Position numbers and translations under genes: made by a program. This document shows positions 8,764 to 25,952 of a DNA stretch of 59,782 bases, piece after piece. The notes under the pieces are model-generated. The model was given only the letters and a program-made list of their open reading frames with translations, was not told the origin of the DNA and made no database searches. The stretch is from positions 1 through 59,782 of IMG/VR virus record IMGVR_UViG_3300028840_006308. One strand, given 5' to 3'. Origin of the DNA: a virus. Taxonomy: Duplodnaviria > Caudoviricetes. Each line of letters starts with the position of its first letter. Positions within the stretch are counted from its first letter, which is position 1.

Positions 8764-8988
8764 GTGACTAGCGGATACCGCGCGATACGCTGTAAAGCCT
8801 GTAATAGATCCCTCTTCCGCGTTCACGCGGGAGAGGGTTTCATTTCCCTGTCGATCAAGTGTCCCTCGTGCAAGGCCAAAGAGCACATCACCATCCGGGA
8901 CTTTACCCCCACAACCGAGCGAATGAACCCAACAGGAGAAGGCGATGTCCTTCCTCGAATCCATTCCTGCGGGGCGGCCGGGAACTAG
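8764..8988 (+). CDS. Mu Com-like zinc-finger protein
   Basis: IRCKACNRSLF...IKCPSCK resembles the Com pattern IRCxxCxxLL...IxCPxC; overlaps the start of the next gene. Confidence 0.7.
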   Translation: MTSGYRAIRCKACNRSLFRVHAGEGFISLSIKCPSCKAKEHITIRDFTPTTERMNPTGEGDVLPRIHSCGAAGN

Positions 8989-9460
8989 CCGCACCATCGG
9001 ACGCATGCGTGAGCTTGCCACGCGCGATGCTCGGAACTGGCGGTTCATCCGCATCGCCACGCGCATCATCGCGGGCTGCCCGCACAAGAGCTACCTGTGC
9101 CACGGCAAGCGCATCCTGCACTTTGTGAAGCGATATGTGCAGTACGTGCCCGACCCGGCCACATCCGTGGAGAATGGGAGCCAGATAGAGCTGGTGCAGG
9201 CGCCCTTCCAGACTTTGCGGCGACGGGCCGGAGACTGCGACGACACCTCGACCCTGGTAGCCGCCCTGGCGATGGCCGTGGGCATCCCCGCGCGTTTCGC
9301 CACCATCAAGGCCGACAAACGGCGCACGGACGAGTTCAGTCACGTGTACGCCGAGCTGCAGGTCAATAACAACTGGATGGGGGCGGACGCCTCCGTCGCC
9401 AAGAGTTACCTGGGATGGCAGCCTCCCGTGCACTACGGGAAGGAAACCTGGAGGATTTAG
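8945..9460 (+). CDS. Transglutaminase-like cysteine protease
   Basis: Cys-His-Asp triad motifs GDCDD, SHVYAE, WMGADAS. Confidence 0.85.
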   Translation: MSFLESIPAGRPGTSRTIGRMRELATRDARNWRFIRIATRIIAGCPHKSYLCHGKRILHFVKRYVQYVPDPATSVENGSQIELVQAPFQTLRRRAGDCDDTSTLVAALAMAVGIPARFATIKADKRRTDEFSHVYAELQVNNNWMGADASVAKSYLGWQPPVHYGKETWRI

Positions 9461-9462
9461 GC

Positions 9463-10908
9463 ATGAAGCGCAAGCGCGAGTTTTTCCCCAGCACCCACGT
9501 CGAGGTGACCCGTCGCCAGGGGATAATCCGGGACATCTTCGGGATGGGCAATTTCTACGAGCCGCACGACTTCTATAACCCCCTGAACGTCCGCGGACCG
9601 GAGTTCCGGAGGAAGATAGTCGAGCGCGCCAAGCGCGTCATGGCCAAGGCCCCGGAGCGCCAGCGCCTGGCGGCCACGCGCAAGGTGCTCGCCGAGAAAC
9701 TGGTCACCCGCAAAGGTCCGGCGGTCGGTAAGGCCATCGCCGCGCGGCGCCTGGAGATAGAGGCCCGCAAGAAGGGGCTCAAGCCCATTTCGCCGCGCAC
9801 CAAGGCGCTGGCCAAGATGATCCCCCCGAAGCTCTACCGCAGCCTGCGTTCAGGGCCCAAGGACGACGTCATGCGCCTGCCCGCAACCCGGCAGACCTAC
9901 CTCGTGACCGCGCCCCAGCCGGTGCTTCGAGACGAGTACCAGCTTCCCACTCCGCGGCATGCCTACAACCGGGTGGGCAAACTGGTGGCCCCGGGCAGCG
10001 AGCAGCCCTACGTGGACCCCGCGTCGATCAACGTCCAGACCGATGCCTACCAGCGCACGGCGAACCAGGTCATCCAGGTTAGCCAGGAGCCGCACCCGAC
10101 GTTCTACGACGAGGAGGTGCCCTCGACGTGGTTCAACCCCATGGAGAGCATGACCAAGCGCGGCGACCAGCCCTTTGTCCCCAAGGACCGCGGCATCGGT
10201 GAGCCCGAGAAGACCGCGGTCATCCACGAGAAGGATTACGGGCTCTTCCAGCACATCGACAAGCAGCTGCGCCCGCCCATGCTCATCTCCAAGGAGGAGA
10301 TGGGCTTCCCCTACATGCGCGGCGAGGCACAGCGCTACGCGGGCATGACCAGCGGTGCCGCGGCCGTCACGCCGGTGGACCCCAGCGTCATCAAGGGCCA
10401 GCCCTGGCAGAGCCCGGCCTTCGCGCACCACAATCTGCCCGAGGGCACCATCCAGAACGACCCCGACCCCGAGGCGGGGATGGGCGCATGGCCCTCGGGA
10501 CTCGGCATCGACTCGCGCGAGATGGCGCACAAGCTCTACGACCGCATCAGTTTCCTGGAGCAGGAGATAGAAGGGCTCAACCCGGCCGCCATGGCGGACG
10601 TCGCATCGGACTTCGCGGTCCAGCGCGCGACCATCCAGAGCCTCTTCGAGGACATCGAGAGAACCCCAACGGCGGGCGTGGTGGAGATAGCCAAGTCGGC
10701 GACCTTCATGGCTACGGGGAAATACTACCTCGAGAAGCTCGAGAAGGAGTACGAGAAGGTCTCGAGGGAAGCACCGAGGCCGGTGCCGGTTGTCCACGCC
10801 GAGCCGGTGGTTTCCGAACCCGTCAAGAAGGCCGCGCTCGGCGTCGGAGCCGTAGCCGCGCTCGCAGCCCTGGGCGTCGGCGGATATCTGCTCTATAAGG
10901 CCAGCTAG
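9463..10908 (+). CDS. Putative virion membrane protein with C-terminal anchor
   Basis: ATG at 9463 after GGAGG; IRDIFGMG and GMGAWPSGLG motifs; terminal AALGVGAVAALAALGVGGYLLYK. Confidence 0.7.
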   Translation: MKRKREFFPSTHVEVTRRQGIIRDIFGMGNFYEPHDFYNPLNVRGPEFRRKIVERAKRVMAKAPERQRLAATRKVLAEKLVTRKGPAVGKAIAARRLEIEARKKGLKPISPRTKALAKMIPPKLYRSLRSGPKDDVMRLPATRQTYLVTAPQPVLRDEYQLPTPRHAYNRVGKLVAPGSEQPYVDPASINVQTDAYQRTANQVIQVSQEPHPTFYDEEVPSTWFNPMESMTKRGDQPFVPKDRGIGEPEKTAVIHEKDYGLFQHIDKQLRPPMLISKEEMGFPYMRGEAQRYAGMTSGAAAVTPVDPSVIKGQPWQSPAFAHHNLPEGTIQNDPDPEAGMGAWPSGLGIDSREMAHKLYDRISFLEQEIEGLNPAAMADVASDFAVQRATIQSLFEDIERTPTAGVVEIAKSATFMATGKYYLEKLEKEYEKVSREAPRPVPVVHAEPVVSEPVKKAALGVGAVAALAALGVGGYLLYKAS

Positions 10909-10919
10909 GAGGCATACTG

Positions 10920-11654
10920 ATGGCCCGCATCGGCTGCAACCGCAATTATATAAGAGACTTCTTTGGAATGGGTACCTACGCCTGCCTTCCCAGGCTTGAG
11001 CGCCCAGACGAACATGCCCAGGTCGTGAATCGGGGCATGGGCGACCTGTACTCCGAGAGTGAGGCGCGCGGGATCCTTGATGCAGCCAACGCAGCGGCGA
11101 CCAGCGCTCAGGCCGCCTATAACAAGGCGTATCCCGAGCTGGTGAAGACCCAGGTCGACACGCTCTACAAGAAGAGCCTGCCCGCGATGCGTCAAGCCCT
11201 GGGGCGTGCCGAGGCGCAGTTTACCGCCGAGCTCGAGAAGCCGTTCTATGTGAACAGCGACTACGACCTCGCCGTGAAGAACGCGCGCCAGGCCGAGACC
11301 TACGCCAAGAACATCATCGCGGATATCGCCGCCTTCCTGCGCTACAACCGCGACGAACGCGAGCGCCTGAAGGACATGGAGGCCCAGCGCCAGTTGGCCT
11401 TGAAGCAGGCCGTTTCGGACGAGGAGGTCAAGGCCGCCCAGGGGGGGCTCGTAGCCTATGCGGGATTCAAGGCCAAGGAGGCGGGCGAGGAGCTCGGGGA
11501 GACCACGAAGCAGATAGCCGAGGGGATGATGGGGGCGTTAACGGGGTTCCTGAAGGGCATCCCCTGGTGGATGTGGGTGCTCGGGCTCGGGGTCGCGGGT
11601 GCGTACATCGCCGGTCCGGCGCTCGCCACCCGGGCCTTGGCGCGGCGCGCATAA
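10920..11654 (+). CDS. Putative virion membrane protein
   Basis: IRDFFGMG and RGMGD motifs; TM segment PWWMWVLGLGVAGAYI. Confidence 0.7.
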   Translation: MARIGCNRNYIRDFFGMGTYACLPRLERPDEHAQVVNRGMGDLYSESEARGILDAANAAATSAQAAYNKAYPELVKTQVDTLYKKSLPAMRQALGRAEAQFTAELEKPFYVNSDYDLAVKNARQAETYAKNIIADIAAFLRYNRDERERLKDMEAQRQLALKQAVSDEEVKAAQGGLVAYAGFKAKEAGEELGETTKQIAEGMMGALTGFLKGIPWWMWVLGLGVAGAYIAGPALATRALARRA

Positions 11655-11669
11655 CGGGAGGACGGTTCC

Positions 11670-12086: not shown

Positions 12087-12089
12087 GGC

Positions 12090-13127
12090 ATGGCCAAGAA
12101 GAAGAAAGCCAAGAAGCGCAAGGCCAAGAAGGCCGTCAAACGCAAGAAGAAGAACCCGGCCATGAAGCCCAGGAAACGGCCGCTGGCGAAGGCCACCAAG
12201 AAGGCTCGGCGCAAGAAGGTCGCCAAGGCGCTCAAGAGCAACAAGGTGCCCAAAGCCCCCAAGGGCTACAAGCTCTGGAACCAGGTGCTCTACAAGCGCA
12301 TGGCCGACCAGGTGGCCGACCGCCTGCGCAAGGAGGGCAACCTCGCCCGGGTCGTGAAGGGCTACGACCCGAAGATATTCTCGGGCGAAGGGCACGACGT
12401 TTACACCGTGTTCTACAAGCGCGCTTCGAGGCCTCCGAAGCCCGTGCCTGTCAAGTTCAACCCGGAGAAGTACAAACGCACGCGCATCGCCGACCCGCGC
12501 GAATTCGACTCGCGCTCCTTCCGCGTGAAGAACGTACCCGGCAAGAGCCACAAGCTCGTCGTGGCCTGCCCCATCGGCTCCTGGGACGCCAAGACGGGCC
12601 GCTGCAAGGCGGGGATGGAAGTGCAGTCGGTCCTCACGGAGAAAAAGCCCCGCGGCAAGAACCCGTTGCTGATGGTGGTCCCGAACAAGAAGAAGGCCAA
12701 GAAGGCGAAGAAGAAGCCCAAGCGCAAGAACCCGCTGCTGATGGTCGTGCCGAACAAGGGCAAGAAGAAGGAGAAAAACCCCCCGAAGGGCTGGCACGAG
12801 AAGCAGCGCCGCGAGTACGCCAAGCGCATGGCCGAAGATCTGAAGGCCGAGCACGGCAAGGGCGCGGACTACTGGCAGGGCGCCACCTCGGCGGAGGCTC
12901 GCGCAGTGGCGGCCAACGCACCGCGCATTCGCAAGTTGATGGCCATCAAGAAGCGCGGCAAGGCAGGGATGGTCGACGGCCGCAAGGTCTCGGCCCCCCT
13001 GGCGAGCGCCATCGTGAAGTGCTACGCGCAGCTGGATGCGGCGGGCAAGCGGACCTTCGGCAAGGCGCCACTCGACCGCATGGTGGCCGTGGTCCAGCGC
13101 CTGCACGGCCGCGGAGTGCTCAAGTAG
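12090..13127 (+). CDS. Lys/Arg-rich putative DNA-condensing core protein
   Basis: Extremely basic; repeated KNP motifs including two copies of KNPLLMVVPNK. Confidence 0.7.
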   Translation: MAKKKKAKKRKAKKAVKRKKKNPAMKPRKRPLAKATKKARRKKVAKALKSNKVPKAPKGYKLWNQVLYKRMADQVADRLRKEGNLARVVKGYDPKIFSGEGHDVYTVFYKRASRPPKPVPVKFNPEKYKRTRIADPREFDSRSFRVKNVPGKSHKLVVACPIGSWDAKTGRCKAGMEVQSVLTEKKPRGKNPLLMVVPNKKKAKKAKKKPKRKNPLLMVVPNKGKKKEKNPPKGWHEKQRREYAKRMAEDLKAEHGKGADYWQGATSAEARAVAANAPRIRKLMAIKKRGKAGMVDGRKVSAPLASAIVKCYAQLDAAGKRTFGKAPLDRMVAVVQRLHGRGVLK

Positions 13128-13136
13128 GGAGGTCCC

Positions 13137-13790
13137 ATGGCGAAGCGTAAGCTACCCGATCACGTTGATAAGTGGTTCAAGACGCGCGCGGAGGCCATGG
13201 CCTACAAGCGCAAGGTGGACAAGACGGGCCGCGTGGCGACCTTGCCCCGGAAGTTCAAGGGCAAGTGGATAGTCCGCTCGACGCGTCACTCCCTGAAGGC
13301 TCCGTCGCTCTGGAGCATCCGCCAGGCGGAGAAGCGCGCGGCGGCCAAGCGGAAGGCCAAGCGCAAAGCCTCTAAGCCCAAGAAGGCCAAGGGGAAAGCG
13401 AAGAAGGGCAAGAAGAAGGCCCGTCGTAACCCCGGCACCAAGTTGTCGGCCGCCGATATGCAGGAGCTCATGAAGGATCCCGAGTTCAAGAAGGCCCTCA
13501 AGCTCTACCGGAAACTGCACGGGTGCGACCCCGAGAGCATCTCGCGCCGGGTACTTCCCATCGGCGGCAAGCGGGTCACCGGGCGCGAGTTCTTCGTTTC
13601 TATGGGAAAGGCGCCTGCGGAGAGCTACGAGCCCCACCAGAAGAACTCCAAGAAGAAGGGCACCATCTGGGTGCATCCCTACGACGACAAGCCGGAGAAG
13701 GTGGTTTCGGCCGATGGCAAGACCATCATCACGATGCCTGGTAGCCACGCGGTGCGGGTGATCGACGGCGAGGCGTGGATCGACGGATAG
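13137..13790 (+). CDS. Basic putative core protein
   Basis: K/A-rich linker ending in RRNP, followed by a globular domain. Confidence 0.7.
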   Translation: MAKRKLPDHVDKWFKTRAEAMAYKRKVDKTGRVATLPRKFKGKWIVRSTRHSLKAPSLWSIRQAEKRAAAKRKAKRKASKPKKAKGKAKKGKKKARRNPGTKLSAADMQELMKDPEFKKALKLYRKLHGCDPESISRRVLPIGGKRVTGREFFVSMGKAPAESYEPHQKNSKKKGTIWVHPYDDKPEKVVSADGKTIITMPGSHAVRVIDGEAWIDG

Positions 13791-13850
13791 GCTTTCTGGC
13801 AAGGAACGTCAAGACAGAGCCAAGAAAAGGAGAAACAAGGCATTTCAGGC

Positions 13851-13998: not shown

Positions 13999-15099
13999 AT
14001 GGCAGTCGAGGCAGTCGTGCTCAACCACCCCCGGGGAAAGGTGAGGCTAACCAAGAAGGAGCTCCACGCTCTCGCTGGCTGGCCAAAGCTGAACCCCAAG
14101 GGCGGGGGCACCAAGAGGAGGAAGAAGGGAATGAAGAAGAACAAGTCCGGTGTCCCCAAGAGCGCCCGGGGCAAAGCCTACCGCAAGGTGGTGAAGAAGT
14201 ACGGCGTGATCGAGGGCGCGAAGAAGTGGCGGAGCATGAAGCGCAAGCCGAAGTTCGCGGCCAACATCATCACGGGCAACCGCAAGCCCAAGCGCCCGGC
14301 CAAGAAGAAGAAAAGCGTGAAGCGGAACTACGGCACCAAGAGCGGGTTCCGGAAGGCCGCCAAGAAGAAGGGCCTCACCGTCAAGAAGTACGCCAAGCGC
14401 ATCGGCCGCAAGGGCGGCAAGGCTCGCTGGGGCCTGAACAAGCCCGCGAAGCGGAACTACGGCGTTCGCCGCAACAAGGCCGGACTGGCCTCCTTCAAGA
14501 AGAGCTTCAAGGAGCTCCTTACGCTCGACACCCTGAAGGACGGGCTGCAGGTCGCCGGTGGTGGCATGCTTTCGGTCGCCGTCCCGAACGTGGTCCTGGG
14601 CCTCAAGGCGCTCGAGGGCAAGGTCCCCGAGGTTCTGACCAAGGGCTGGGGCAAGTACCTGGTCAACCTGGTGGCCGTGGGCCTGACCAGCGGGACCGCA
14701 TCGTTCTTCGGCCAGACCAAGCTGGCCAAGAACTTCCTCCTGGGTGGCGTGGCCGCCACGCTCAACAGCGTGATCCTCGACCAGGTCCACGTCCAGGCTA
14801 AGAAGAACCCGTCCGGCGTAGCGGCCAAGGTCGCCGCGGCTGTCGCCCCCGGCGGCACCATGGGCATCCTGACCCAGGACGTCGAGCAGGCGGTGGAGCA
14901 GGCGGTCGAGGCCGAGCTGCAGCGCCAGGGCCTGAGCGACTACCTGGTCCCCGAGGAAGCCGCGAACCCCGCGCTGAAGGACTACCTGGTACCGGCCGAG
15001 GTGGTATCGCCCACCATGGCCGACTACCTGACCCCCGCCGAGGCGGTTAACCCCGCGCTGGGCATCGTTACCGACGCAGACGCCGTAATGGCTTTCTGA
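13999..15099 (+). CDS. Putative major core/membrane protein
   Basis: Basic N-half with KRNY/KKNP motifs, hydrophobic middle, acidic C-terminal repeats LSDYLVP/LKDYLVP/MADYLTP. Confidence 0.7.
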   Translation: MAVEAVVLNHPRGKVRLTKKELHALAGWPKLNPKGGGTKRRKKGMKKNKSGVPKSARGKAYRKVVKKYGVIEGAKKWRSMKRKPKFAANIITGNRKPKRPAKKKKSVKRNYGTKSGFRKAAKKKGLTVKKYAKRIGRKGGKARWGLNKPAKRNYGVRRNKAGLASFKKSFKELLTLDTLKDGLQVAGGGMLSVAVPNVVLGLKALEGKVPEVLTKGWGKYLVNLVAVGLTSGTASFFGQTKLAKNFLLGGVAATLNSVILDQVHVQAKKNPSGVAAKVAAAVAPGGTMGILTQDVEQAVEQAVEAELQRQGLSDYLVPEEAANPALKDYLVPAEVVSPTMADYLTPAEAVNPALGIVTDADAVMAF

Positions 15100-15165: not shown

Positions 15166-15774
15166 ATGAAGGGCACGGGAATTGCACTGAGTCGCCCCGC
15201 ACCGGCTGGTTACGTGCGGGCGTACAGGAACCCCCTGTACGACACCGACGACCTGCAGGCAGCCGCGACCGCACAGGTCCGGTTCTTCCAGGTTCCGGTC
15301 GGTCAGCTGAACGCTTCGGCGGCTGTGAAGACCGAGGCAGACACCAACCTGACCCAGGCCGGGCAGCTGGCTAACCCCCAGATGTTCGACCTCTTCGGCT
15401 TCCAGTTCGAGACGGAGCCGCAGGTCGTGGTCGCGGACCAGGTGCTGGTCTACCAGCGCGGTGTCTTCGAGTTCTCCTTCGGCACCCAGCGGATCTGGCT
15501 GCAGGTTCCCCTCAGCCGCATTCCGCAGGGCCCCAGCCAGTACATCACCGCCGCAGCGACCACGGTCGCCGCGACCACCATCCAGAGCGCGGTGTGGGGC
15601 TCGCCGAGCGTGCGGGAATACTACCCGTTCGTGAAGCCGGATGGCGCTCCGTATCGCATCAAGGCGACGGAGACCTTCCAGTGCCGCACCTTCTGGCCGA
15701 GTGCGGCCATCACCGCCTCCGCGGTGACGACCCTCCGCACGTTCATGATCGGCATCCTCTACATCGGCCTGTAG
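15166..15774 (+). CDS. Candidate major capsid protein (single jelly-roll-like)
   Basis: 202 aa, beta-rich (PLYDT, RFFQVPVG, KTEADTNL); strong RBS; followed by a terminator hairpin. Fold is inferred. Confidence 0.55.
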   Translation: MKGTGIALSRPAPAGYVRAYRNPLYDTDDLQAAATAQVRFFQVPVGQLNASAAVKTEADTNLTQAGQLANPQMFDLFGFQFETEPQVVVADQVLVYQRGVFEFSFGTQRIWLQVPLSRIPQGPSQYITAAATTVAATTIQSAVWGSPSVREYYPFVKPDGAPYRIKATETFQCRTFWPSAAITASAVTTLRTFMIGILYIGL

Positions 15775-15897: not shown

Positions 15898-16773
15898 GTG
15901 GCTAGAGTCAGTTCGTTCGTTCGTAACGCCGGGGGCAAGCTGGTCCCCAACCCTTCCAAGCTAGACGTCCAGTCCTTCTACCTGGTACCCGACAACCCCA
16001 ACAATCCGGTCACGGTCGGTGCGGGCGCAACCAGCCCGCCCATCCTCTTCACCGTAGGCCAGGACGGCCCCTTCGAGGGGTTCTACCTGACTCACGAGAA
16101 GACGAACCAGACCCTCATGACCGTGGACATCTACGATGAAGCGGCGCGCCGCCACCTGATGAACCGTCCGGTGCACATCGACACGATCATGGGCCAGACG
16201 CTTACGGCGGTGGGCCCCCGCGCCGGTGGTATCGGGCCACATCTCTTCGCCGAGACGCTCTTCATGCAGACCTCTCGGTCGCTTTCGATGACATTCGTCG
16301 ACGGCGCGGCCGGGAACACGGTCTGGCCCTCGGTGGTGGGACGGCGCTTCTACAACTACGCAAATCCCAGCGAGTCGATGGCCATGGCCGTCGAAAAGCG
16401 CGGAGCGCGCGCTCGCTTCTCGACTCCGTACTTCCTGACCACGACCGAGGACGTTTCGGTCGCGGGCGCGGCCACGGGACAGCAGTTCTTCCTGCAGGTC
16501 ACGCCCGAGGCGCACTTCGAGTGGTTCAAGCTCATGGTCGTCTCGACCGGCGCCTTCTCCTTCAGGCTGTACGACGCCCGCAATAACCGCGCCATCACCA
16601 ACGACTTCATCCACGTGAGCGCGGCGGCGGGCCAGGCGTCCTTCCCGATGGTGTTGCCCGAGCCCATCCTCTACCAGGCCAACACCCGCCTGCGCCTTGA
16701 GATAAACGAGCTCAGCGGCGCGGCGAACGACATCTACTTCACGATGGGCGGGAGGCGCATCTATGTCGCATGA
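15898..16773 (+). CDS. Tandem beta-domain protein (double jelly-roll-like capsid component)
   Basis: GTG at 15898 after AAAGGAG; two similar domains of about 130 aa ending VGRRFY and GGRRIY. Confidence 0.6.
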   Translation: MARVSSFVRNAGGKLVPNPSKLDVQSFYLVPDNPNNPVTVGAGATSPPILFTVGQDGPFEGFYLTHEKTNQTLMTVDIYDEAARRHLMNRPVHIDTIMGQTLTAVGPRAGGIGPHLFAETLFMQTSRSLSMTFVDGAAGNTVWPSVVGRRFYNYANPSESMAMAVEKRGARARFSTPYFLTTTEDVSVAGAATGQQFFLQVTPEAHFEWFKLMVVSTGAFSFRLYDARNNRAITNDFIHVSAAAGQASFPMVLPEPILYQANTRLRLEINELSGAANDIYFTMGGRRIYVA

Positions 16774-17380
16774 GATTCGGCCAGGAGGGAACGGCACCCT
16801 GGCGGGTCTCGGCGACTTGAGGGGCCCGGCCATCAAGCCGGATCCGCTGCCTGCGGGCCATCCGGACGGGGGCATGGGCGATTACGTCGAGCCCTTCGCC
16901 CGGCACATAGAGCCCGGTGGGCGGCGGCCGATGCCGCCGAAACCCATCGAGGCATACGTGCCACCCATCCCGGGCACACCGGGCATGCCAGGCGATGGCG
17001 TCGTCGCGATAAACCCCGCGATGCTGGAGACGCTCATCGAGGCACAACTGCGCGCGCTCGCCATCATCAAGGAGCGCGAGGGTGCCATCCCTACCATCGA
17101 AGAGCGCATGCATACCGCCACGGCGGAGGCGTTTACGGTGGGCACCACGGCGGTGCAACTTGACGCCATCACGCGCCGCGAACGCCGAGCGGTCATGCTC
17201 ACCAATACCAGCCTGGTCAACACGGTCTGGTATGGGTTCAGCGCAACCGTAGGCATCAATAACGGCGGATACCTCGCACCGGGCGGTGGCACCGCAAGCC
17301 TGCCCATCGACGAGAACGTCCAGGTCTGGACCATAGCCACCGCCGCAGGCACTGTCGTTTCCATCCTGCAGTTTGCGTAG
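16763..17380 (+). CDS. Putative vertex/penton or spike-base protein
   Basis: Pro-rich N-terminus with GLGD/GMGDY, a short helix, then a small beta-sandwich C-domain. Confidence 0.5.
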   Translation: MSHEIRPGGNGTLAGLGDLRGPAIKPDPLPAGHPDGGMGDYVEPFARHIEPGGRRPMPPKPIEAYVPPIPGTPGMPGDGVVAINPAMLETLIEAQLRALAIIKEREGAIPTIEERMHTATAEAFTVGTTAVQLDAITRRERRAVMLTNTSLVNTVWYGFSATVGINNGGYLAPGGGTASLPIDENVQVWTIATAAGTVVSILQFA

Positions 17381-18924: not shown

Positions 18925-21900
18925 TTGGCCACCAAGTATTTCATCGGAGGAACCACCGGAGGATTCAACCAGGGGTTCTCCAATGGTTTCAACATCGGCA
19001 CGCCTGACAAGGACTGGCACGACGGTAATAACTGGTCCCTGTCGAGCGGCGGTGCCGGTGGCGCGGGCGTTCCCGGAGCCAGCGACGATGTCATTTTCGA
19101 CAATAACAGCCCCGACTGCCAGCTTACGGCCAACGGCAACTGTCGGGACTTCACCATCACCGCAACTTGCCCGTCGGACGTAGACCTCAACGGCTTCACC
19201 CTGGACATCGAGGACGCGGTTAGCGTCGACGTGGCCGGTGGCGCATCTATCACGCCCAACCTGGGCACCGTGTTGCTTTCGACCGGTGGCTCACGCACAG
19301 TCGATTTCGGCGGCGAGGTTCTCTACAACCTCACCCACAGCGCGGGCGACAGCGTCACCTACGTCGACACGAACGTCAGTAACGAGTTCCGCATCACTAC
19401 CGGGTATCGCATCAACGGCACCATCAATGTGCAGGGCGATGTTAGAAGCACGACGAGCGCGCTCAACAGCACGCAAACGGGACGGGTTATCCTCGACGGC
19501 ACCGGGGCCCAGGAGGTCTATGTCGATAAGCTCGGCGGCAGCGCCGACTTCCCGGCCATCCTGGTCAACAAGGGCGGCGGCGTAGCAACGCTTTATGATC
19601 GCATCGTGATGCCCACGGCCGGGGCCACCGCGGGGCTGTCAAGCGGCCTGGCAACGCTGGATGCGTTAACCCAGCAGCCCACGCTGGTCTCCGAGCGGTT
19701 CACCCATTTCGATTTCAACGGGGCCCGCATCTGGCGCGTTGAACAGCGGACCAACGGCTTCACCATGCAGTATATGAGCGACGTGGGCGTGGTGGATCAA
19801 TTCTACCTGGCCACGGTCACGAACACCACGGGCGGAAACAAGATCAACCTCGAGGGCGACCTGCGCCTGGGCGATACGGGTGCGCTTAGTAGCACATCGG
19901 TGACCATCGAGTTCATGGGGACCGGTGACCAGAACGTCATCAACGACGACCCGTCCGACTACTCGCTCCCCTGGAACATCAACAAGCCCAGCGGCACGCT
20001 GTTCCTCGGCAGCGACATCATTCGGTTCTCGGCCAATACCAACATCACCTGGACCTATACCCAGGGGACGGTTGACCCCGGGACCGCGACCCTGGACTTT
20101 AACAGTCAGCGCAGTAAGACCATCAACCTCACGGCGGGCGACTTCACGGTCTACAACCTCAAGCTCGGCACCGGTGGTGTCTATGCGACCAACATCAACA
20201 CCAACAAGTTCCTGGTGGAAAACGTTTTTACCCTGCAAGGCGGGGGCAGCACCCAGACCCTGAACGGCTCAATCGAGGTCGGGGGCAACATCATCAACAC
20301 CAGAACCGGTGGCACCACCAACGGCACGTTCAACGTCACCATCAACGGCAGCGGTGACCAGACCATCGACGGCAACGCCGCCAACTTCCACACCGGCGCG
20401 TGGATCGTTAACAAGCCCAGCGGTTCGCTCAAGCTGATCTCCGACCTGTCGCTCAACGATACCAGCACCGACCTTACAGTCACCCAGGGCACGCTGGACC
20501 TCGACGGTTTCGACATCACCGTCAGCCGAAACTTCACGGTGAACGACGGCCTGGCGCTGACCGGCGCGGAGACCATCACGGTCGGCGGTGCCTTCACTCT
20601 CAACCCCGCAGCGAGCTCGGTCCTCTACCACGGCGCGGCCACGGCGGTGCTCAATAACCTGGCCACGGCCTTCTTCAACCTGAACCTCGACCGGGATACG
20701 GACGGCAAGACCATCCAAACCACGGCGGGGACGACCATCACCCTGAACGGCGAGGTTACGACCAACGGCACGAACGGCACCCCCACGCTGATTCGCTCGA
20801 CGATATCGGGCACGCAGGCGAAGTGGAACCTGGTAGGAACGCAGTCGCTCCTGAACGCGGTCGACGTACAGGACAACGACGCCTCGGGCGGCCTGCCGTT
20901 CTACGTGTTCGGCTCGGTGGACTCGGGCAATACCATCAACTGGTTCTTTACCACGCTCGCGGGAGCGGTTCAGCAGCACGCGCAGATTTCGGTGGTCATG
21001 CCCCAGCAGGGGGTGCTCGTAGGCGGGGCCTTCGCGTTTGACATGATGAACTACCACGGGCCGTTGGCGGCAGGAGGTGGCGGCGTGTTCCCAGGACCCG
21101 GAAGCACATACTCCATCTTCACGGCGGGCTTTACGGATGCGCCCGGCGGCGGAAACGTGATAGCAGGATACAATCACGTCACGAGCCAGTTCGACATCCT
21201 CACGCTGGTCCCCGGTGCATCGCCCTACGAGCTGGTCGTTTCGCCCACGCATGTGGCGGGGGTGGTTGCGGCGGTTCCAACCGCCACCACGCGCTCGAGC
21301 CCCTGGCCCGTAACGGCGTTTGGGAATGGGTCCTTCCCGGCCAACCAGGACATCGGCGCAGGCGCCAACCGCAAGGGCGCGGTGCGCGCGGGGAACATCC
21401 TCTACGCGTCGGAGACCAACGCGGTGGGCGGGACCTTTGTGCAGAGCAGCGCGGACGGCCTCGCCTGGGCACAGTTGGGTATCCAGGCCTCGGCCGCGCC
21501 CGCGCAGCCGCGGTGCCTGTACGTCCTTCAGAGCGGCACGATACTCATGATCGACGATAACGGCTGCCTGCGCTCGAATACGGGGGGCGCCTCCTGGACC
21601 ACGCCTGCATTGCCGGGCCTGCCCGTGGGGACCATTCTCGGGGCGATGTTCAGCGAGATAACCGCGGGGGGTACCATCTTCCTGCTGATAAGCTCGGTCT
21701 CGGGCGCATTCCAGGGCTCGCGGCTCTATCGCAGCATCGACGACGGCGTTACCTGGGCGCTGGTCTACGACGAGTCGATCAGCGGGCCTTACACCGCAAA
21801 CTGGATCGATAGCAGTAACGTGCGCATGGTGGCCATGACGGCCAACATCATCGTGGTCTCGTACAACTATTGGGTGATGCGCTCGACGGACGGCGGGCTT

Positions 21901-22149
21901 ACCTGGGCCGATACGCACACCGACTCGGTGGGCTTCTTCGGGCAGGATATGTGGGAGGACACGAAGAGCGGCGACATCTACGTAATGTTCCGCGATAACG
22001 CGGGCAACACCGGGGGGCGCATCATCCGCAGCGCGGATAACGGCGCCACCTGGGCGGCATGGTTCAACAGCCTCCTGGATATCTGCGGCCAGGGCGGCGT
22101 GGCCGTGGTTGCCCCGAGAGCGTTTGCGTTTGGCGGTTCCCGGCGATGA
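18925..22149 (+). CDS. Large spike/adhesin: beta-solenoid-like stalk plus Asp-box (BNR) propeller
   Basis: 1074 aa, G/T/N-rich; Asp-boxes SADGLAW, SNTGGASW, SIDDGVTW, STDGGLTW, SADNGATW. Confidence 0.7.
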   Translation: MATKYFIGGTTGGFNQGFSNGFNIGTPDKDWHDGNNWSLSSGGAGGAGVPGASDDVIFDNNSPDCQLTANGNCRDFTITATCPSDVDLNGFTLDIEDAVSVDVAGGASITPNLGTVLLSTGGSRTVDFGGEVLYNLTHSAGDSVTYVDTNVSNEFRITTGYRINGTINVQGDVRSTTSALNSTQTGRVILDGTGAQEVYVDKLGGSADFPAILVNKGGGVATLYDRIVMPTAGATAGLSSGLATLDALTQQPTLVSERFTHFDFNGARIWRVEQRTNGFTMQYMSDVGVVDQFYLATVTNTTGGNKINLEGDLRLGDTGALSSTSVTIEFMGTGDQNVINDDPSDYSLPWNINKPSGTLFLGSDIIRFSANTNITWTYTQGTVDPGTATLDFNSQRSKTINLTAGDFTVYNLKLGTGGVYATNINTNKFLVENVFTLQGGGSTQTLNGSIEVGGNIINTRTGGTTNGTFNVTINGSGDQTIDGNAANFHTGAWIVNKPSGSLKLISDLSLNDTSTDLTVTQGTLDLDGFDITVSRNFTVNDGLALTGAETITVGGAFTLNPAASSVLYHGAATAVLNNLATAFFNLNLDRDTDGKTIQTTAGTTITLNGEVTTNGTNGTPTLIRSTISGTQAKWNLVGTQSLLNAVDVQDNDASGGLPFYVFGSVDSGNTINWFFTTLAGAVQQHAQISVVMPQQGVLVGGAFAFDMMNYHGPLAAGGGGVFPGPGSTYSIFTAGFTDAPGGGNVIAGYNHVTSQFDILTLVPGASPYELVVSPTHVAGVVAAVPTATTRSSPWPVTAFGNGSFPANQDIGAGANRKGAVRAGNILYASETNAVGGTFVQSSADGLAWAQLGIQASAAPAQPRCLYVLQSGTILMIDDNGCLRSNTGGASWTTPALPGLPVGTILGAMFSEITAGGTIFLLISSVSGAFQGSRLYRSIDDGVTWALVYDESISGPYTANWIDSSNVRMVAMTANIIVVSYNYWVMRSTDGGLTWADTHTDSVGFFGQDMWEDTKSGDIYVMFRDNAGNTGGRIIRSADNGATWAAWFNSLLDICGQGGVAVVAPRAFAFGGSRR

Positions 22150-22361: not shown

Positions 22362-22372
22362 GGAGAAATGCC

Positions 22373-22810
22373 ATGCTGTTCGGACAGGACACGAACTTCT
22401 TCGAGAACGGAAACGGACTGGGGCAGTTCGAGCTCCAGGAGCTCGGCAGCGGGGCCATGGAGGCCACCACCAAGCTCAACATCTGGGGCAAGCTCGGGGA
22501 GATGACCAAGAACATCACGAACAACCTGATGGAGAAAATCCCCGACATCGCCGGAGATGCGCTGGGCACCCTGGTCCAGGCCAAACTCAGCGAGAAGATT
22601 CTCGGCGACATGGGCGGCGGTGGGGAGGACAGCAAGACCCAGACCATCGTCAAGCGCGAGATAATCGAGCGCCAGGTACCGGTTTCGGCCGCGCCCGTGC
22701 AGCCCACGGCACAGGCCGCAAAGGAGGGCCTGCCGGGCTGGGTTATCCCCGCAGGCATCGGCGCGGCGGTCCTGGTCGGCCTGGTGGGCTACAAGGCCCT
22801 CAAGAAGTAG
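22373..22810 (+). CDS. Putative virion membrane protein
   Basis: NGLGQ motif; C-terminal TM PGWVIPAGIGAAVLVGLVGYKALKK. Confidence 0.7.
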   Translation: MLFGQDTNFFENGNGLGQFELQELGSGAMEATTKLNIWGKLGEMTKNITNNLMEKIPDIAGDALGTLVQAKLSEKILGDMGGGGEDSKTQTIVKREIIERQVPVSAAPVQPTAQAAKEGLPGWVIPAGIGAAVLVGLVGYKALKK

Positions 22811-22896
22811 CCGAGAAAGGGCCATTGCTGCCCCATGACAGGGGGGCACACGGCGTTTTCTCGGGAAATGCGCCCCGCAAGGGCAGGAGAAGGGAA

Positions 22897-23112
22897 ATGA
22901 GACCTCAGAGCTTCTTTGCACCTGGTGCACTGCCTTACGGCACGGACACGGGAGTCTACCTGCGTGAGGGCGCGTTTGAAGAGCACGGCCTCGGCCAAGC
23001 CGAGGAAAAAGAGGATCCGGTCACCGCATTCGCCCGCCGTTGGGGGGATGTGATCAAGTTGGCGGCCACAGTAGGCTTGCTGATAAAGTTCGTAGCACCC
23101 AAGCTCAAGTAA
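22897..23112 (+). CDS. Small putative virion membrane protein
   Basis: HGLGQ motif; C-terminal hydrophobic helix plus KLK. Confidence 0.6.
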   Translation: MRPQSFFAPGALPYGTDTGVYLREGAFEEHGLGQAEEKEDPVTAFARRWGDVIKLAATVGLLIKFVAPKLK

Positions 23113-23128
23113 AAGGAGGCATAGGACC

Positions 23129-23449
23129 ATGGCCAAGAAGAAAGCGAAGACGAAACCCGCGAGCAAGCGCAAGGACGCCGCTGTGGCGAACCGCGCGCCG
23201 AAGGTGCTGAAGTCGAAGGCCAAGCCTCGGCTGAAGGCCAAGATGGACGCAGGCCTCGAGGCCGCGCTGGCCGCCGTAGCAGGCCGGGACGCCAAGGGCG
23301 CCGCCGCCGCGCTCGGCAAGGTCAAGCTCAAGGACAAGGCCGCCCAGGGCAAGGTCAAGGATGCGCTCGCGGCCCTGAAGTCCGGGTCGCTAGCCAAAGC
23401 GCGCGTCTGCATCGGCCAGGCACGGACCTTCCTGCTCAACGCCGAGTAA
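23129..23449 (+). CDS. Lys/Ala-rich basic protein
   Basis: RBS AAGGAGG; histone-H1-like composition. Confidence 0.7.
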   Translation: MAKKKAKTKPASKRKDAAVANRAPKVLKSKAKPRLKAKMDAGLEAALAAVAGRDAKGAAAALGKVKLKDKAAQGKVKDALAALKSGSLAKARVCIGQARTFLLNAE

Positions 23450-23456
23450 GCGCTCC

Positions 23457-25952
23457 ATGCTGCGCGACTGGGAAACGTCTGCCATCTTCCCGAAGGGGAA
23501 GTGGTACAACACCGGGGCCAATCCGGCGGGGCAGGCCAACGCCATCGCCGAGATGTTCTTCGAGAAGGCGTTTCCCAAGCTGGTGCCACCCCTGGAGGCG
23601 GGCGCGGGCATCCTGTCGGCCAAGCCGCAAGCTATTAGCCTGTTCTACGAGTACGAGGCACCGCCCTCGCCGAGTACTTTCGCCGCGGAGTACGCCGCCG
23701 ACGTCCAGGCCGAGGTGGGGCCCATTCCCGCGGGGCTGGGGCAGGTAAAGGTCGACACCGAGGAGCTGGTCAAAGACGCCGCTGTATCGGCCGTGAAAAA
23801 GGCCGCCATCGAGGCGGTGGCCAAGGGCGTGGCCATGCAGATAGGTGCCGAGGCGGTACCTGTCGCCAAGCTGGCCATCGCGGTCGCCGACGTGGTGAAG
23901 GACTACAAGTCCATCGTCGAGGACGAGAGCGCGCGGTGGTCGGCGGCCTTCGGGCTAACCAGCGCGGTGGCGGCGGCGTTCGCCATCCCCGTAGTGGGCC
24001 AGTTGGCGGCCATCGGCGCGCTCGCCAAGGGATTCATCGACTTCCGCCAGGCCAAGGAGGAAATCGAAAAGCAGAAGCGTGCGTCCGAGGAGCTGTCCAA
24101 GATGCTGCGCAGCAGCATCGACGCGGTCATGCCCGAGGTGCAGGCGCTGGTTGAGACCATCCAGTCGCGCGGATACGGCATCGACCCGAAGGGCACCGAG
24201 GCATTCCGGAAAGACCTCCTCAAGCACTATCGCGCGCTCCTGGCCACCAAGCTCAAGCGGTCGCCGTTCAAGACGCCCACGGCGCCGTATGAGGCGGCCC
24301 GCAAGCAGATGGCGGCGCAGGCCAGCGAGCTCGAGGGCTACTTGAAGTCCAAGGTCTACAGCGACAAGGCTTGGGGCAACTTTACCCGGCAGCTAATCAA
24401 GCCGCCGACGCCCAGCCTCGAGAGCTTCTTCGAGAAGGTCGACGATGCGCTGGGTAAGAGCTCATACATCCCGCGCGGGTCGGGGCTGTCGGGCCTGGGG
24501 TTCGGCATGCCCGGAAGCAGCATCGACGAGAAACTGTTCCAGGCCGCCCAGGCGGCCCAGAAGAAGTCCAAGCCGTACATCGCTCCGGAGAAAGAGCGCC
24601 AGGCGGCTATCTACCAGCAACTCACCACGCAGCCCACGACCGTTTTCGCGCAGCCGTTGCCGATAGACAGGGAGCTCTTCGCGCGCTTCTGGCGGGTGGA
24701 TCCCGATAAGTTGCCCGACGTCGAGTACCGCATCACCGATGACGCAGGCAGGGGCCTGGGTTACACGACCACGCTGCGCAAGCAGTACGATCAGCTCAAG
24801 ACGGCCATGGAGAAGGCGCTGGGCGACACGGTGGGCGCGGGCGAGCTGTCGGGGCTTAAGTCCTGGCGCTCGAAGTGGTTATCGGCCTGGAAGGACTACG
24901 ACAAGAAACGCGAGGCGCTCTTTGAGTCGGTCGCGGGCCTTCCCCGCGGCGGCGAGCTCACCGGCGAGGACGACTGGCTGGTCAAGGCCGTCGGCCAGGA
25001 CAACATGCTGCGCTATGAACGTGGCCGCAACGCGGCGCTGTTCCTGCTCGGCAAGCACGGAGGCTTTGCCACGGTAAGCGCGATGCAGGCCAAGGGCGGC
25101 ATCGGCGACTGGAAGGACGCGCTCTGGACCGCCGACTACTGGAACGACACGGTCATGCCCATCTACAACAAGATGATGGAGCAGCGCTGGGGTCGGCGCG
25201 ACATGGTGCGGGCCTTCCTGCAGTTGGCGCGCGACATGCGCAAGGTCCGCCTGGCGCTCGAGAAGTTGCCTCCGTACCTCTTCGAGAACGAGGTTAAGAT
25301 GCTGGGCGAGGCCATCGTGGCCGCCGACTCGCTGATTCCGATGTCCTTGGCGGTGGCCATCGCGGCGGATCTCCTGCAACCCATCAAGGGCCGGGCGCTT
25401 ACGCCCGCCCAGCGCAAGCAAGTGGGCGGAAGCATCGCCAAGCGCATCGTCGAGCGCTCCAGAACAGCGCTCCTAACCGCCCGATTCACGCCCGATTACG
25501 TCATGGGCCTGCTCGTGCCCCCCGTCACCGAGTACTTCGCGCTCATGAAGGGCCTCACGGGCAAGATATCGGCCCTTCCGCGCCCCGAGGGCGATGCCCC
25601 CACCCCTGAGTACAACGAGGCACTGGCGGCGATTGTGGCCGAGCACGAGGCCCCCCTGAAGGCGTTGACGGAGAAGTACTCCCAGGCCGTCAAGGTCTAC
25701 AAGCCGGGAGTGGTGTCCGAGGCTATTGGCGCCATACTCAAGGAGATAGGAGTAGAGGAGCAGCGAGGGCGCATCGCGGATGCGATTGCGGCCAAGCTAG
25801 GTGGCGAGTTTACGCGGTTTGCGGCCGCCGAGCTCATCTACCGGGCGACTACTACGCCCGCGGACAAGTTCCTGGCCAGCGTCGGCGCTCCCAAAGGCGG
25901 CCTTTTGCCCCTCGCCGCCGCCGCCGCTGGCCTGGTTTACCTGTTGGGATAG
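23457..25952 (+). CDS. Large helical membrane-anchored protein (possible DNA delivery)
   Basis: 831 aa; AGLGQ, GLSGLG and RGLG motifs; internal hydrophobic segment; C-terminal KGGLLPL anchor. Function is a guess. Confidence 0.6.
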   Translation: MLRDWETSAIFPKGKWYNTGANPAGQANAIAEMFFEKAFPKLVPPLEAGAGILSAKPQAISLFYEYEAPPSPSTFAAEYAADVQAEVGPIPAGLGQVKVDTEELVKDAAVSAVKKAAIEAVAKGVAMQIGAEAVPVAKLAIAVADVVKDYKSIVEDESARWSAAFGLTSAVAAAFAIPVVGQLAAIGALAKGFIDFRQAKEEIEKQKRASEELSKMLRSSIDAVMPEVQALVETIQSRGYGIDPKGTEAFRKDLLKHYRALLATKLKRSPFKTPTAPYEAARKQMAAQASELEGYLKSKVYSDKAWGNFTRQLIKPPTPSLESFFEKVDDALGKSSYIPRGSGLSGLGFGMPGSSIDEKLFQAAQAAQKKSKPYIAPEKERQAAIYQQLTTQPTTVFAQPLPIDRELFARFWRVDPDKLPDVEYRITDDAGRGLGYTTTLRKQYDQLKTAMEKALGDTVGAGELSGLKSWRSKWLSAWKDYDKKREALFESVAGLPRGGELTGEDDWLVKAVGQDNMLRYERGRNAALFLLGKHGGFATVSAMQAKGGIGDWKDALWTADYWNDTVMPIYNKMMEQRWGRRDMVRAFLQLARDMRKVRLALEKLPPYLFENEVKMLGEAIVAADSLIPMSLAVAIAADLLQPIKGRALTPAQRKQVGGSIAKRIVERSRTALLTARFTPDYVMGLLVPPVTEYFALMKGLTGKISALPRPEGDAPTPEYNEALAAIVAEHEAPLKALTEKYSQAVKVYKPGVVSEAIGAILKEIGVEEQRGRIADAIAAKLGGEFTRFAAAELIYRATTTPADKFLASVGAPKGGLLPLAAAAAGLVYLLG

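What the first reader, a model, noticed from the sequence alone, without database searches (positions are those of the whole stretch)
8945..25952. Candidate maturation system: transglutaminase-like enzyme plus a G[LM]G motif shared by unrelated virion proteins
Seen: otherwise dissimilar + strand proteins carry related short motifs in linker regions: IRDIFGMG and GMGAWPSGLG (9463), IRDFFGMG and RGMGD (10920), TMG/GLSDY/LKDY/MADY/ALG (13999), AGLGD and GMGDY (16763), NGLGQ (22373), HGLGQ (22897), AGLGQ, GLSGLG and RGLG (23457). Most end in a membrane anchor. Known: adenoviruses, poxviruses and ASFV mature by cysteine-protease cleavage at Gly motifs, and transglutaminase-like folds can be proteases. 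Inference: a bacterial-virus analogue in which one enzyme cleaves or cross-links many precursors at a shared motif, or the motif docks them on the capsid.
Basis: partly seen in the sequence, partly recalled or inferred. Interest (0 to 1): 0.85.

Follow-up and report, generated by a model that had tools for sequence, protein, structure and literature searches.

The report
Shared peptide motif in membrane-virus proteins
A complete genome of a tailless, membrane-containing bacterial or archaeal virus carries a short peptide motif conserved at the free ends of several unrelated virion proteins, next to a conserved transglutaminase-like enzyme, but whether the enzyme acts on the motif remains untested.

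Summary
All listed strings are in the window, a complete 59.8-kb virus genome. Raw counts are weak evidence: G[LM]G occurs 14 times against 5.5 expected in the + block. GMG ranks only 14th among tripeptides and GLG is at chance. A phage without the enzyme, P23-77, has the same density.

Conservation is the real evidence. G-φ-x-D-Y is kept in 12 of 12 homologues of the 16763 protein and repeated in the tail of every 13999 homologue. Sites in the 9463, 10920, 22373 and 23457 families are also kept. Four or five listed sites are not.

The enzyme is a transglutaminase-core protein with an invariant Cys-His-Asp triad. It recurs with N-proximal motifs in four distant viruses, including cultured Salisaeta phage SSIP-1, where it is annotated as structural.

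The capsid protein has a double jelly-roll fold.

I read the motif as a docking peptide that tethers membrane proteins to the capsid (0.4). Cleavage by the enzyme is the main rival (0.25). The enzyme may instead be a cell-wall peptidase.

The parts
8945..9460 (+). Transglutaminase-like enzyme, 171 aa, soluble, with Cys98-His133-Asp148
   Evidence: Pfam PF01841 E 3.6e-12, 47 bits against a cut-off of 23. D97, C98, D99, H133 and D148 are invariant in 13 sequences. PDB 3isr E 9.5e-5.
9463..10908 (+). Tail-anchored membrane protein, 481 aa. N-terminal motif IRDIFGMGNFY (nt 9541-9549 = GMG). Internal GMGAWPS (nt 10477-10485). C-terminal hydrophobic anchor.
   Evidence: In homologue P0021 the part after the internal GMG is replaced by a 10920-like C-terminal part.
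10920..11654 (+). Tail-anchored membrane protein, 244 aa. IRDFFGMGTY (nt 10965-10973) and RGMGDLY (nt 11034-11042).
13999..15099 (+). Protein with a basic N-terminal part, a hydrophobic middle and an acidic C-terminal tail that carries three phi-x-D-Y-L copies (nt 14929-15027)
   Evidence: The tail repeats are kept in 8 of 8 and 7 of 7 homologues.
15166..15774 (+). Single jelly-roll capsid protein, 202 aa. Most conserved protein of the module (57-73% identity in the closer relatives, 35% in L016).
   Evidence: AF2 pLDDT 67. VIA Z 7.7, rmsd 3.3, 125 aligned to 1stm; Z 7.2 to HHIV-2 6h82_b. Identities.
15898..16773 (+). Double jelly-roll major capsid protein, 291 aa, GTG start
   Evidence: AF2 pLDDT 86. 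VIA Z 11.0, rmsd 4.8, 239 aligned to the STIV capsid protein 2bbd; Z 8.8 to PRD1 P3; Z 8.6 to PM2 P2.
16763..17380 (+). Capsid-associated protein: variable N-arm with conserved G-phi-x-D-Y (GMGDY, nt 16871-16879) followed by PGxxR, then a small beta-rich C-terminal domain
22373..22810 (+). Small tail-anchored protein with N-proximal NFFENGNGLGQF (nt 22415-22423)
   Evidence: The G001 orthologue has NFFGMGE at residue 8.
22897..23112 (+). Possible small tail-anchored protein with HGLGQ (nt 22987-22995). Uncertain gene.
   Evidence: GC3 is 0.67 against 0.8-0.9 for neighbouring genes.
23457..25952 (+). 831-aa membrane protein. AGLGQ (nt 23733-23741) lies at the border between a variable and a conserved segment. 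Two further GLG sites are not conserved.
27802..28224 (+). Tail-anchored protein with TGLGAD at residue 51 (nt 27952-27960). Conservation not tested.
6336..8204 (+). Long acidic, low-complexity protein that precedes the enzyme, as similar-looking proteins do in L024, L025 and SSIP-1. Possible scaffold; homology beyond G001 is not shown.
   Evidence: BLAST links only window with G001, and L024 with L025.

Best explanation
The window is the complete genome of a tailless virus of a bacterium or archaeon. It has a double jelly-roll capsid and, by inference, an internal membrane. [quoted passage not shown]

Several unrelated virion proteins carry a conserved short linear motif on an unstructured end that points away from the membrane anchor. 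The core is G-phi-x-(D/N/Q)-aromatic. It lies near the N-terminus of tail-anchored membrane proteins. It occurs in 2-4 tandem copies in the acidic C-terminal tail of the 13999 family, and once on the N-arm of the capsid-associated 16763 family.

I read it as a common docking peptide that tethers the viral membrane proteins, and one capsid accessory protein, to one shared partner. That partner is most likely the inner face of the capsid lattice, as vaccinia membrane protein A17 binds the double jelly-roll scaffold D13.

Shown: the motif, its conservation, its positions, the capsid folds, and the enzyme's family and triad.

Inferred: the internal membrane, the side on which the motif-bearing ends lie, the partner, and any binding.

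The transglutaminase-like enzyme is a conserved component of the same module and is annotated as a structural protein in SSIP-1. Its role is open. I put processing of these motifs at about 0.25 and a cell-wall endopeptidase for entry or lysis at about 0.35.
For: - Invariant positions fit a binding motif. The hydrophobic residue, the Asp and the aromatic residue are kept, while the third position varies among G, S, K, A, Q and R.
- Tandem copies 12-14 residues apart sit in a disordered acidic tail in all homologues: 8 of 8 and 7 of 7. Very distant relatives show the same, with DDGMSAYV-type repeats in L025 and VGEYF and MGEYV in L024.
- All motif positions are at membrane-distal ends.
- G[LMIV]G within the first 60 residues occurs in 14 of 29 proteins with a hydrophobic C-terminus against 5 of 73 others (Fisher 6e-6; shuffle mean 3.3, maximum 10 in 2000). 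That class also caught three single jelly-roll proteins and two 16763-family proteins whose ends are beta strands.
- In the four distant enzyme-bearing viruses alone the figures are 8 of 19 against 1 of 41 (Fisher 2e-4).
- Control phages show no such contrast: PRD1 0 of 7 against 1 of 21, P23-77 2 of 7 against 7 of 29.
- The capsid protein is a double jelly-roll. Trimers of that fold are known to hold peptides of membrane proteins (D13-A17; Introduction of PMC8971458).
Against: - No binding partner is shown.
- Invariant Gly is unusual for a pure docking motif and typical of viral cysteine-protease sites.
- The internal site in the 9463 family lies exactly at a module junction (P0021 fusion), which suits cleavage better.
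- The N-proximal sites of tail-anchored proteins (GLGQ, GMGx) are more degenerate than the tail motif and may be a different class.
- In G001 only 1 of 9 polar-context sites has an aromatic residue within three positions.
- The counts were defined after I had seen the data, and orthologues are not independent.
Confidence: 0.4

Rival explanations
1. Maturation by proteolysis. The transglutaminase-like Cys-His-Asp enzyme cuts precursors at or beside G-phi-G. This removes short N-terminal leaders (8-43 residues) from tail-anchored membrane proteins, trims the 13999 tail, and separates the modules of the 9463 and 10920 proteins. It may act on top of docking, as protease I7 cuts A17 to release D13 in poxviruses.
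For: - The triad is intact and invariant.
- The enzyme gene sits directly upstream of the proteins with the most motif copies in the window, L005, L013, G001, L024-L026 and SSIP-1.
- SSIP-1 gp34 is annotated as a structural protein. It is itself tail-anchored and has RGMGE in the linker between enzyme domain and anchor.
- The segments before the motif vary in length and sequence.
- P0021 joins two modules exactly at GMGD.
- An enzyme of this fold, LapG, cuts LapA between two small residues at a conserved distance from the N-terminus (passages of PMC3032545).
- No other protease was found among the 40 window proteins scanned.
Against: - No cleavage data exist.
- The third motif position tolerates R, Q and K.
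- Three or four sites 12-14 residues apart in one tail would be odd for a protease.
- The basic core-like proteins and the scaffold-like protein carry no site.
- Co-occurrence may only reflect common descent of the whole module, and no enzyme-less sister lineage was available to compare.
- Small enzymes of this kind form several mostly viral clusters, which suggests a more general job.
Confidence: 0.25
2. The enzyme is a cell-wall endo(iso)peptidase used at entry or lysis and is unrelated to the motif. This reading is compatible with the docking explanation.
For: - Phage enzymes PeiW and PeiP have the same Cys-His-Asp transglutaminase-like catalytic domain and lyse pseudomurein walls (passages of PMC2989375).
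- The Atlas structure search lists the PMBR/Peptidase_C71 cluster at TM 0.71.
- No other lysin was found in the window among 40 proteins scanned.
- Virion-borne wall enzymes are usual in membrane-containing phages, for example PRD1 P7 and the P23-77 virion-associated lysozyme as annotated.
Against: - There is no wall-binding domain, signal peptide or neighbouring holin.
- By my reading of their sequences, with no family search run, SSIP-1 already has a lysozyme-like ORF31 and a transglycosylase-like ORF54.
- The gene lies at the head of the structural module, not in a lysis cassette.
Confidence: 0.35
3. True transglutaminase. The enzyme cross-links a Gln at the motif (GLGQ, RQG) to Lys of the lysine-rich proteins and so hardens the virion.
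For: - GLGQ recurs in the window (3 times), in L024 and in L026.
- RQG precedes the first tail motif in every 13999 homologue examined.
- There are four Lys/Arg-rich proteins.
Against: - The Gln is not kept in orthologues: FGMGE for NGLGQ and AGLGA for AGLGQ.
- Most microbial members of this superfamily are thought to be hydrolases (recalled, not tested).
Confidence: 0.05
4. There is no common function. The sites are Gly-rich hinges or turns that recur by composition and by descent within each family.
For: - Count enrichment is weak and GLG is at chance.
- P23-77 has the same density.
- Four or five listed sites are not conserved.
Against: - The sites are conserved islands within otherwise unalignable segments in five families.
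- The same G-phi-x-D-Y occurs in two unrelated families.
- The sites are confined to ends of anchor-bearing proteins in four further viruses.
Confidence: 0.15

Closest known systems
Vaccinia A17 - D13 - I7
   Same: A viral membrane protein end binds the trimer of a double jelly-roll lattice protein, and proteolysis of that membrane protein releases the lattice (Introduction of PMC8971458). Here too there is a double jelly-roll lattice protein, many membrane proteins with a conserved motif near a free end, and one cysteine enzyme.
   Different: The host is prokaryotic. The enzyme has a transglutaminase/papain-like fold, not the Ulp1-like fold of I7 (recalled). The motif is G-phi-x-D/N/Q-aromatic, not AG-X (recalled). 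The same motif sits on many proteins. Neither binding nor cleavage is shown here.
Adenovirus protease sites (M/L/I)XGX-G and (M/L/I)XGG-X in pVI, pVII, pVIII, pIIIa (recalled, not checked in a paper here)
   Same: A double jelly-roll virus in which one cysteine protease cuts many precursors at Gly motifs near their ends, and in which basic core proteins are present.
   Different: Only IFGM-G (9463) and LAGL-G (16763, a non-conserved site) fit that consensus by eye. The basic proteins here carry no site. The enzyme clan differs.
LapG / BTLCP proteases
   Same: A transglutaminase-like Cys-His-Asp protease that cuts between small residues at a conserved distance from the N-terminus of its substrate (PMC3032545).
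   Different: No match to that Pfam family came up at E <= 0.01. LapG is periplasmic, is regulated by c-di-GMP and has one substrate class.
PeiW / PeiP pseudomurein endoisopeptidases of methanogen viruses
   Same: A virus-encoded transglutaminase-like Cys-His-Asp domain (PMC2989375). Structural neighbour at TM 0.71.
   Different: No PMBR wall-binding repeats. tblastn against phage records found no relative other than SSIP-1 gp34.
[quoted passage not shown]
   Same: Enzyme homologue (29.6% identity, E 3e-11; family HMM E 6e-39). It is followed by small tail-anchored proteins with GMGD at 17, GLG at 18 and GMGS at 31, and by gp37 with GLGA at 34.
   Different: gp34 carries its own anchor. SSIP-1 has a Walker-A ATPase, gp40; none was seen in the window. 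The capsid-family HMMs found nothing in SSIP-1.

Membership tests
Transglutaminase-like superfamily (Pfam PF01841) | Profile match above the curated cut-off | tested here: met
   47 bits against a cut-off of 23, E 3.6e-12.
Transglutaminase-like superfamily (Pfam PF01841) | Cys-His-Asp triad in that order | tested here: met
   C98, H133 and D148 are invariant in 13 close sequences. C98 and H133 are invariant in 25 sequences; the Asp column is mostly D and sometimes E.
Adenain / Ulp1-like viral maturation proteases (adenovirus AVP, ASFV pS273R, poxvirus I7) | Clan CE protease domain | tested here: not met
   The only family matches of the 171-aa protein are PF01841 and PF04473. No clan CE family was seen in the 40 window proteins scanned. 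This is not membership; a functional likeness stays open.
Adenain / Ulp1-like viral maturation proteases | Cleavage of several virion precursors at a Gly motif | not testable with these tools
   Needs protein chemistry.
BTLCP / LapG | Match to the DUF920/BTLCP profile | tested here: not met
   No such family at E <= 0.01.
Pseudomurein endoisopeptidase (Peptidase_C71, PeiW/PeiP) | PMBR wall-binding repeats plus the C71 catalytic domain | tested here: not met
   No PMBR or C71 match. The structural neighbour at TM 0.71 is only a lead.
Double jelly-roll major capsid proteins (PRD1-adenovirus lineage) | Two jelly-roll barrels in one chain, similar to solved capsid proteins | tested here: met
   Z 11.0, rmsd 4.8, 239 aligned to STIV 2bbd. 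Z 8.8, rmsd 4.9, 247 aligned to PRD1 1w8x. Z 8.6 to PM2 2vvf. Cellular proteins of the same fold score alike, for example 4kq7 at Z 11.5.
Double jelly-roll major capsid proteins (PRD1-adenovirus lineage) | FtsK/HerA-type packaging ATPase in the genome | tested here: inconclusive
   No [GA]xxxxGK[ST] lies in a credible ORF with a P-loop context, and there is no ATPase family in the 40 proteins scanned. The many small ORFs were not scanned.
Short linear motif | A conserved island in an otherwise variable, non-globular segment, kept across orthologues | tested here: met
Intein (in the enzyme gene of relative G001) | Hint domain, Cys at position 1, terminal Asn followed by Cys+1, host protein continuous without it | tested here: met
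   A 346-aa insert lies between AGD and CDD. It starts with Cys and ends in Asn, and the catalytic Cys follows. Intein_splicing E 1.6e-8 at 34.9 bits, just under the cut-off of 35.8; LAGLIDADG_3 is weak.

The most novel reading that the evidence does not exclude
A lineage of prokaryotic double jelly-roll, membrane-containing viruses (the window's clade, small 15-24 kb relatives and SSIP-1) matures like poxviruses and adenoviruses. Many membrane proteins first dock on the capsid lattice through a shared G-phi-x-D/N/Q-aromatic peptide. A virion-borne cysteine protease of the transglutaminase fold then trims them at that peptide. This would be the first maturation protease system in a prokaryotic virus of this capsid lineage, and it would have arisen with a different protease fold from the eukaryotic one.
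Probability: 0.2. Interest if true: 0.85.

Novelty: new variant of a known kind. Interest (0 to 1): 0.6.

Why it matters
No proteolytic maturation, and no common capsid-tethering peptide, came up in my searches for prokaryotic membrane-containing viruses. A full-text search for 'double jelly-roll', 'transglutaminase' and 'maturation protease' found no paper holding 'transglutaminase' together with 'double jelly-roll' among the 15 listed of 28. A 2019 review of membrane-containing phages has no occurrence of 'proteolytic', 'cleavage', 'processed' or 'transglutaminase'.

A shared motif on the free ends of many membrane proteins gives a concrete handle on how the capsid shell and the lipid vesicle find each other during assembly.

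SSIP-1 is cultured, carries the same enzyme and the same kind of sites, and has structural proteins already annotated in its record. Both readings can therefore be tested with ordinary protein chemistry.

Tried and rejected
Searches for relatives that found nothing:
- A single-protein scan of viral contigs with the capsid protein.
- A viral-contig scan with the close enzyme alignment A4.
- A scan of one genome per prokaryote species with the capsid alignment, so no host is named.
- tblastn of the single jelly-roll protein against phage records.

Family searches:
- PHROGs gave only weak hits of unknown function and a tail-fibre-like hit for 17480-18319.
- NCBIfam gave nothing for 10 proteins.
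- HMMs of the five structural families (DJR, SJR 15166, 16763, 13999, 9463) found nothing in the 27 SSIP-1 proteins scanned; only the enzyme HMM matched.
- The 16763 and 9463 HMMs found nothing in L024-L026.

Complex prediction of the enzyme (A4) with residues 22-72 of the 16763 family (A7): verdict 'no answer', score 0.00 against a mark of 0.32, and the controls were not run. I count this neither for nor against binding.

Count statistics as the main argument: rejected, for the reasons given under the observation check.

Cross-linking at the Gln of GLGQ: set low, because the Gln is not kept in orthologues.

An aromatic residue after the motif as a general rule: holds in the window (8 of 12 polar-context sites, against 2 of 8 on the other strand) but not in G001 (1 of 9).

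Homology of the 6336 protein to the proteins that precede the enzyme in L024, L025, L026 and SSIP-1: BLAST supports only window with G001 and L024 with L025.

- The 2012 SSIP-1 paper, which may list N-terminal sequences of virion proteins, is not held. I saw only the GenBank annotation.
- Supplementary files were not consulted.

Full report
WHAT THE WINDOW IS

The window is a whole virus record of 59,782 bp with direct terminal repeats. G+C content is about 62%. Genes with high third-position G+C form one + strand block from 6336 to 28224; nearly everything else lies on the - strand.

Pfam names only one protein of the block above its cut-off: 8945-9460 as Transglut_core (E 3.6e-12, 47 bits against 23). 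PHROGs and NCBIfam add almost nothing.

An AlphaFold model of the 15898-16773 family (18 sequences, pLDDT 86) is a double jelly-roll.
- Z 11.0, rmsd 4.8, 239 aligned to the STIV capsid protein.
- Z 8.8 to PRD1 P3 and Z 8.6 to PM2 P2.
- Cellular proteins of the same fold score in the same range.
- Foldseek alone only showed two-sandwich proteins.

The 15166-15774 family folds as a single jelly-roll at lower confidence (pLDDT 67; best Z 7.7).

Many proteins of the block end in a hydrophobic anchor, and four are Lys/Arg-rich. I therefore read the virus as a tailless virus with a double jelly-roll capsid and an internal membrane. The membrane is inferred, not shown.

Twenty - strand proteins gave a DNA methylase, two integrase-family proteins, DUF5131, PAPS reductase, a DUF6036 nucleotidyltransferase, and weak radical-SAM and exonuclease hits. 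There was no protease, lysin or ATPase. No credible Walker A site was found.

RELATIVES

The capsid protein has 19 database homologues. Scans gave one IMG/VR contig of 66,427 bp (G001) and 15 metagenome loci. Gene order is kept. No prophage copy was found in one genome per prokaryote species.

THE OBSERVATION

All listed strings are present.

As a count the signal is weak.
- 14 G[LM]G against 5.55 expected in the block; 0.2% of 2000 shuffles reach 14.
- 13 against 7.69 in the remaining proteins.
- GMG ranks 14th among all tripeptides and GLG is at chance.
- G001 shows 12 against 7.69.
- P23-77, a G+C-rich membrane phage without the enzyme, has 11 in 5476 aa, the same density.

As conserved positions the signal is strong.
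- 16763 family: the only conserved island in the first 40-odd residues is G-phi-(G/R)-D-(Y/I/L/A). G and D are invariant in 12 of 12, followed by PGxxR.
- 13999 family: the acidic C-terminal tail carries 2-4 copies of phi-x-D/E-Y/F, usually followed by L, in 8 of 8 locus homologues and 7 of 7 database proteins. The third position is G, S, K, A, Q or R.
- 9463 family: only 5 proteins in 1.84 billion representatives, the window's own among them. The N-terminal F/Y-G-x-G-x-F/Y and the internal G[MIL]G are kept, the latter in 5 of 6.
- Homologue P0021 carries the 9463-type front joined to a 10920-type back exactly at GMGD.
- 9463 and 10920 share nothing except the 10-residue N-terminal match.
- The 22373 and 23457 sites are each kept in the one orthologue available.
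- Four sites are not kept, and the 22897 ORF is doubtful.

A WIDER PATTERN

An alignment of distant enzyme homologues found three small IMG/VR contigs of 15.7, 16.6 and 23.9 kb with G+C near 51%. They have the same module order.
- Their enzyme matches the family HMM at E 1e-26 to 1e-45.
- Their capsid genes match the 15166 family and the C-terminal barrel of the double jelly-roll family.
- In L026, three of the four tail-anchored proteins after the enzyme have G[LM]G at residues 10-20 (position 20 counts from the shorter start, nt 6630, used). The fourth has RGLRGL.
- L024 has AGLGQ at residue 24 of a tail-anchored protein.
- L025 and L024 have GMSAY/GMGAY and VGEYF/MGEYV repeats in the tail of the 13999-like protein.

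tblastn of the enzyme against 50,697 phage records found one phage, present as two records (GenBank and RefSeq copies): Salisaeta icosahedral phage 1, gp34, annotated 'structural protein' (HMM E 6e-39; Pfam).
- gp34 is the enzyme domain, then a linker with RGMGE, then an anchor.
- ORF36 (GMGD at 17), ORF52 (GLG at 18) and gp53 (GMGS at 31) are tail-anchored.
- gp37 has GLGA at 34.

I scored G[LMIV]G in the first 60 residues.
- Over the window, G001, L005, L013 and L024-L026: 14 of 29 proteins with a hydrophobic C-terminus against 5 of 73 others (Fisher 6e-6). That class also caught three single jelly-roll proteins and two 16763-family proteins, whose ends are strands rather than anchors.
- In L024-L026 plus SSIP-1 alone: 8 of 19 against 1 of 41 (Fisher 2e-4).
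- Controls: PRD1 0 of 7 against 1 of 21; P23-77 2 of 7 against 7 of 29.

These tests were framed after I had seen the data, and orthologues are not independent. I treat them as support, not proof.

THE ENZYME

D97, C98, D99, H133 and D148 are invariant in the 13 closest sequences. C98 and H133 are invariant in 25. The nearest solved relative by sequence is a putative cysteine protease, 3isr (E 9.5e-5).

All four relatives that cover the region have the gene at the same place: L005, L013, G001 and the window itself. In G001 the gene is split by a 346-aa intein placed immediately before the catalytic Cys.

The Atlas shows several mostly viral clusters of such small enzymes. It also shows the PeiW-like wall peptidases as a more distant structural neighbour.

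HOW IT MOST LIKELY WORKS

Two readings fit.

Docking (0.4).
- The invariant positions are a hydrophobic residue, Asp and an aromatic residue, with a free third position.
- Tandem copies sit in a disordered acidic tail.
- Every site lies at a membrane-distal end.
- All this points to a peptide that binds one common partner many times over, most simply the inner face of the capsid lattice.
- Vaccinia offers the model: membrane protein A17 binds the double jelly-roll scaffold D13 (PMC8971458).

Cleavage (0.25).
- The invariant Gly, the variable leaders, the junction in P0021, the adjacent conserved Cys-His-Asp enzyme, and the anchored enzyme with its own site in SSIP-1 fit a maturation protease.
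- LapG shows that this fold can cut between small residues near an N-terminus (PMC3032545).
- In vaccinia, A17 is also processed to release D13, so the two readings can both be true.

Against a link between enzyme and motif stands the precedent of PeiW and PeiP, virus enzymes of this fold that cut cell walls (PMC2989375). The window also has no other recognisable lysin.

The one complex prediction gave no answer.

COMPARISON AND NOVELTY

The enzyme is a member of the transglutaminase-like superfamily. It is not a member of the adenain/Ulp1 clan, of BTLCP or of Peptidase_C71 by the features tested.

My searches found no report of a maturation protease or a shared tethering motif in prokaryotic membrane-containing viruses. 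The 2012 SSIP-1 paper could not be read.

I rate the finding a new variant of a known kind, with interest 0.6. The motif is real, the mechanism is open, and a cultured phage makes it testable.

Noticed in passing
window 15898-16773; L024:11023-11481, L025:14978-15397, L026:12091-12549: The two barrels of the double jelly-roll capsid protein family are still similar in sequence (hhalign N half against C half: probability 98.4%, E 9e-15, 112 columns, 24% identity). Small relatives encode a 139-152 aa protein that matches only the C-terminal barrel (E 2.5e-15, 2e-13, 9e-5). This may be a snapshot of a single-to-double jelly-roll duplication.
   Followed up: partly
L021:7402-8961 (- strand), record G001: The transglutaminase-like gene of the 66-kb relative carries a 346-aa intein with a LAGLIDADG-like part, inserted right before the catalytic Cys.
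   Followed up: yes
window 12090-13127, 13137-13790, 13999-14500, 23129-23449: Four Lys/Arg-rich proteins or protein parts (20-30% K+R) carry recurring K/R-N-P elements and a duplicated KNPLLMVVPN. KNP and NPA in the window, and RNP, NPG and ANP in G001, are among the most over-represented tripeptides. Relatives have RRNILTN and VAANP repeats. They may be DNA-condensing proteins.
   Followed up: no
whole window: No Walker-A packaging ATPase was found, whereas SSIP-1 gp40 has one. The many small ORFs were not scanned against family libraries.
   Followed up: partly
window 18925-22149 and 17480-18319: A 1074-aa protein has a weak BNR/sialidase-like C-terminal part, below the cut-off. A 279-aa protein has weak tail-fibre-like PHROG hits. 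Both are probably host-recognition spikes.
   Followed up: no
G001 (reverse-complement coordinates 3307-4059, - strand): A second, diverged copy of the 15166-type single jelly-roll protein lies outside the structural block (29% identity over 228 aa, E 6e-19).
   Followed up: no
window 33682-34548, 34470-35291, 3751-4542, 37357-37995, 32849-33364 (- strand): PAPS reductase, a radical-SAM-like protein, DUF5131 and two integrase-family proteins. P23-77 also has an annotated PAPS reductase.
   Followed up: no
window 30508-31914 (- strand): A 468-aa protein with a lipoprotein-like start (hydrophobic stretch followed by Cys) and no family match.
   Followed up: no
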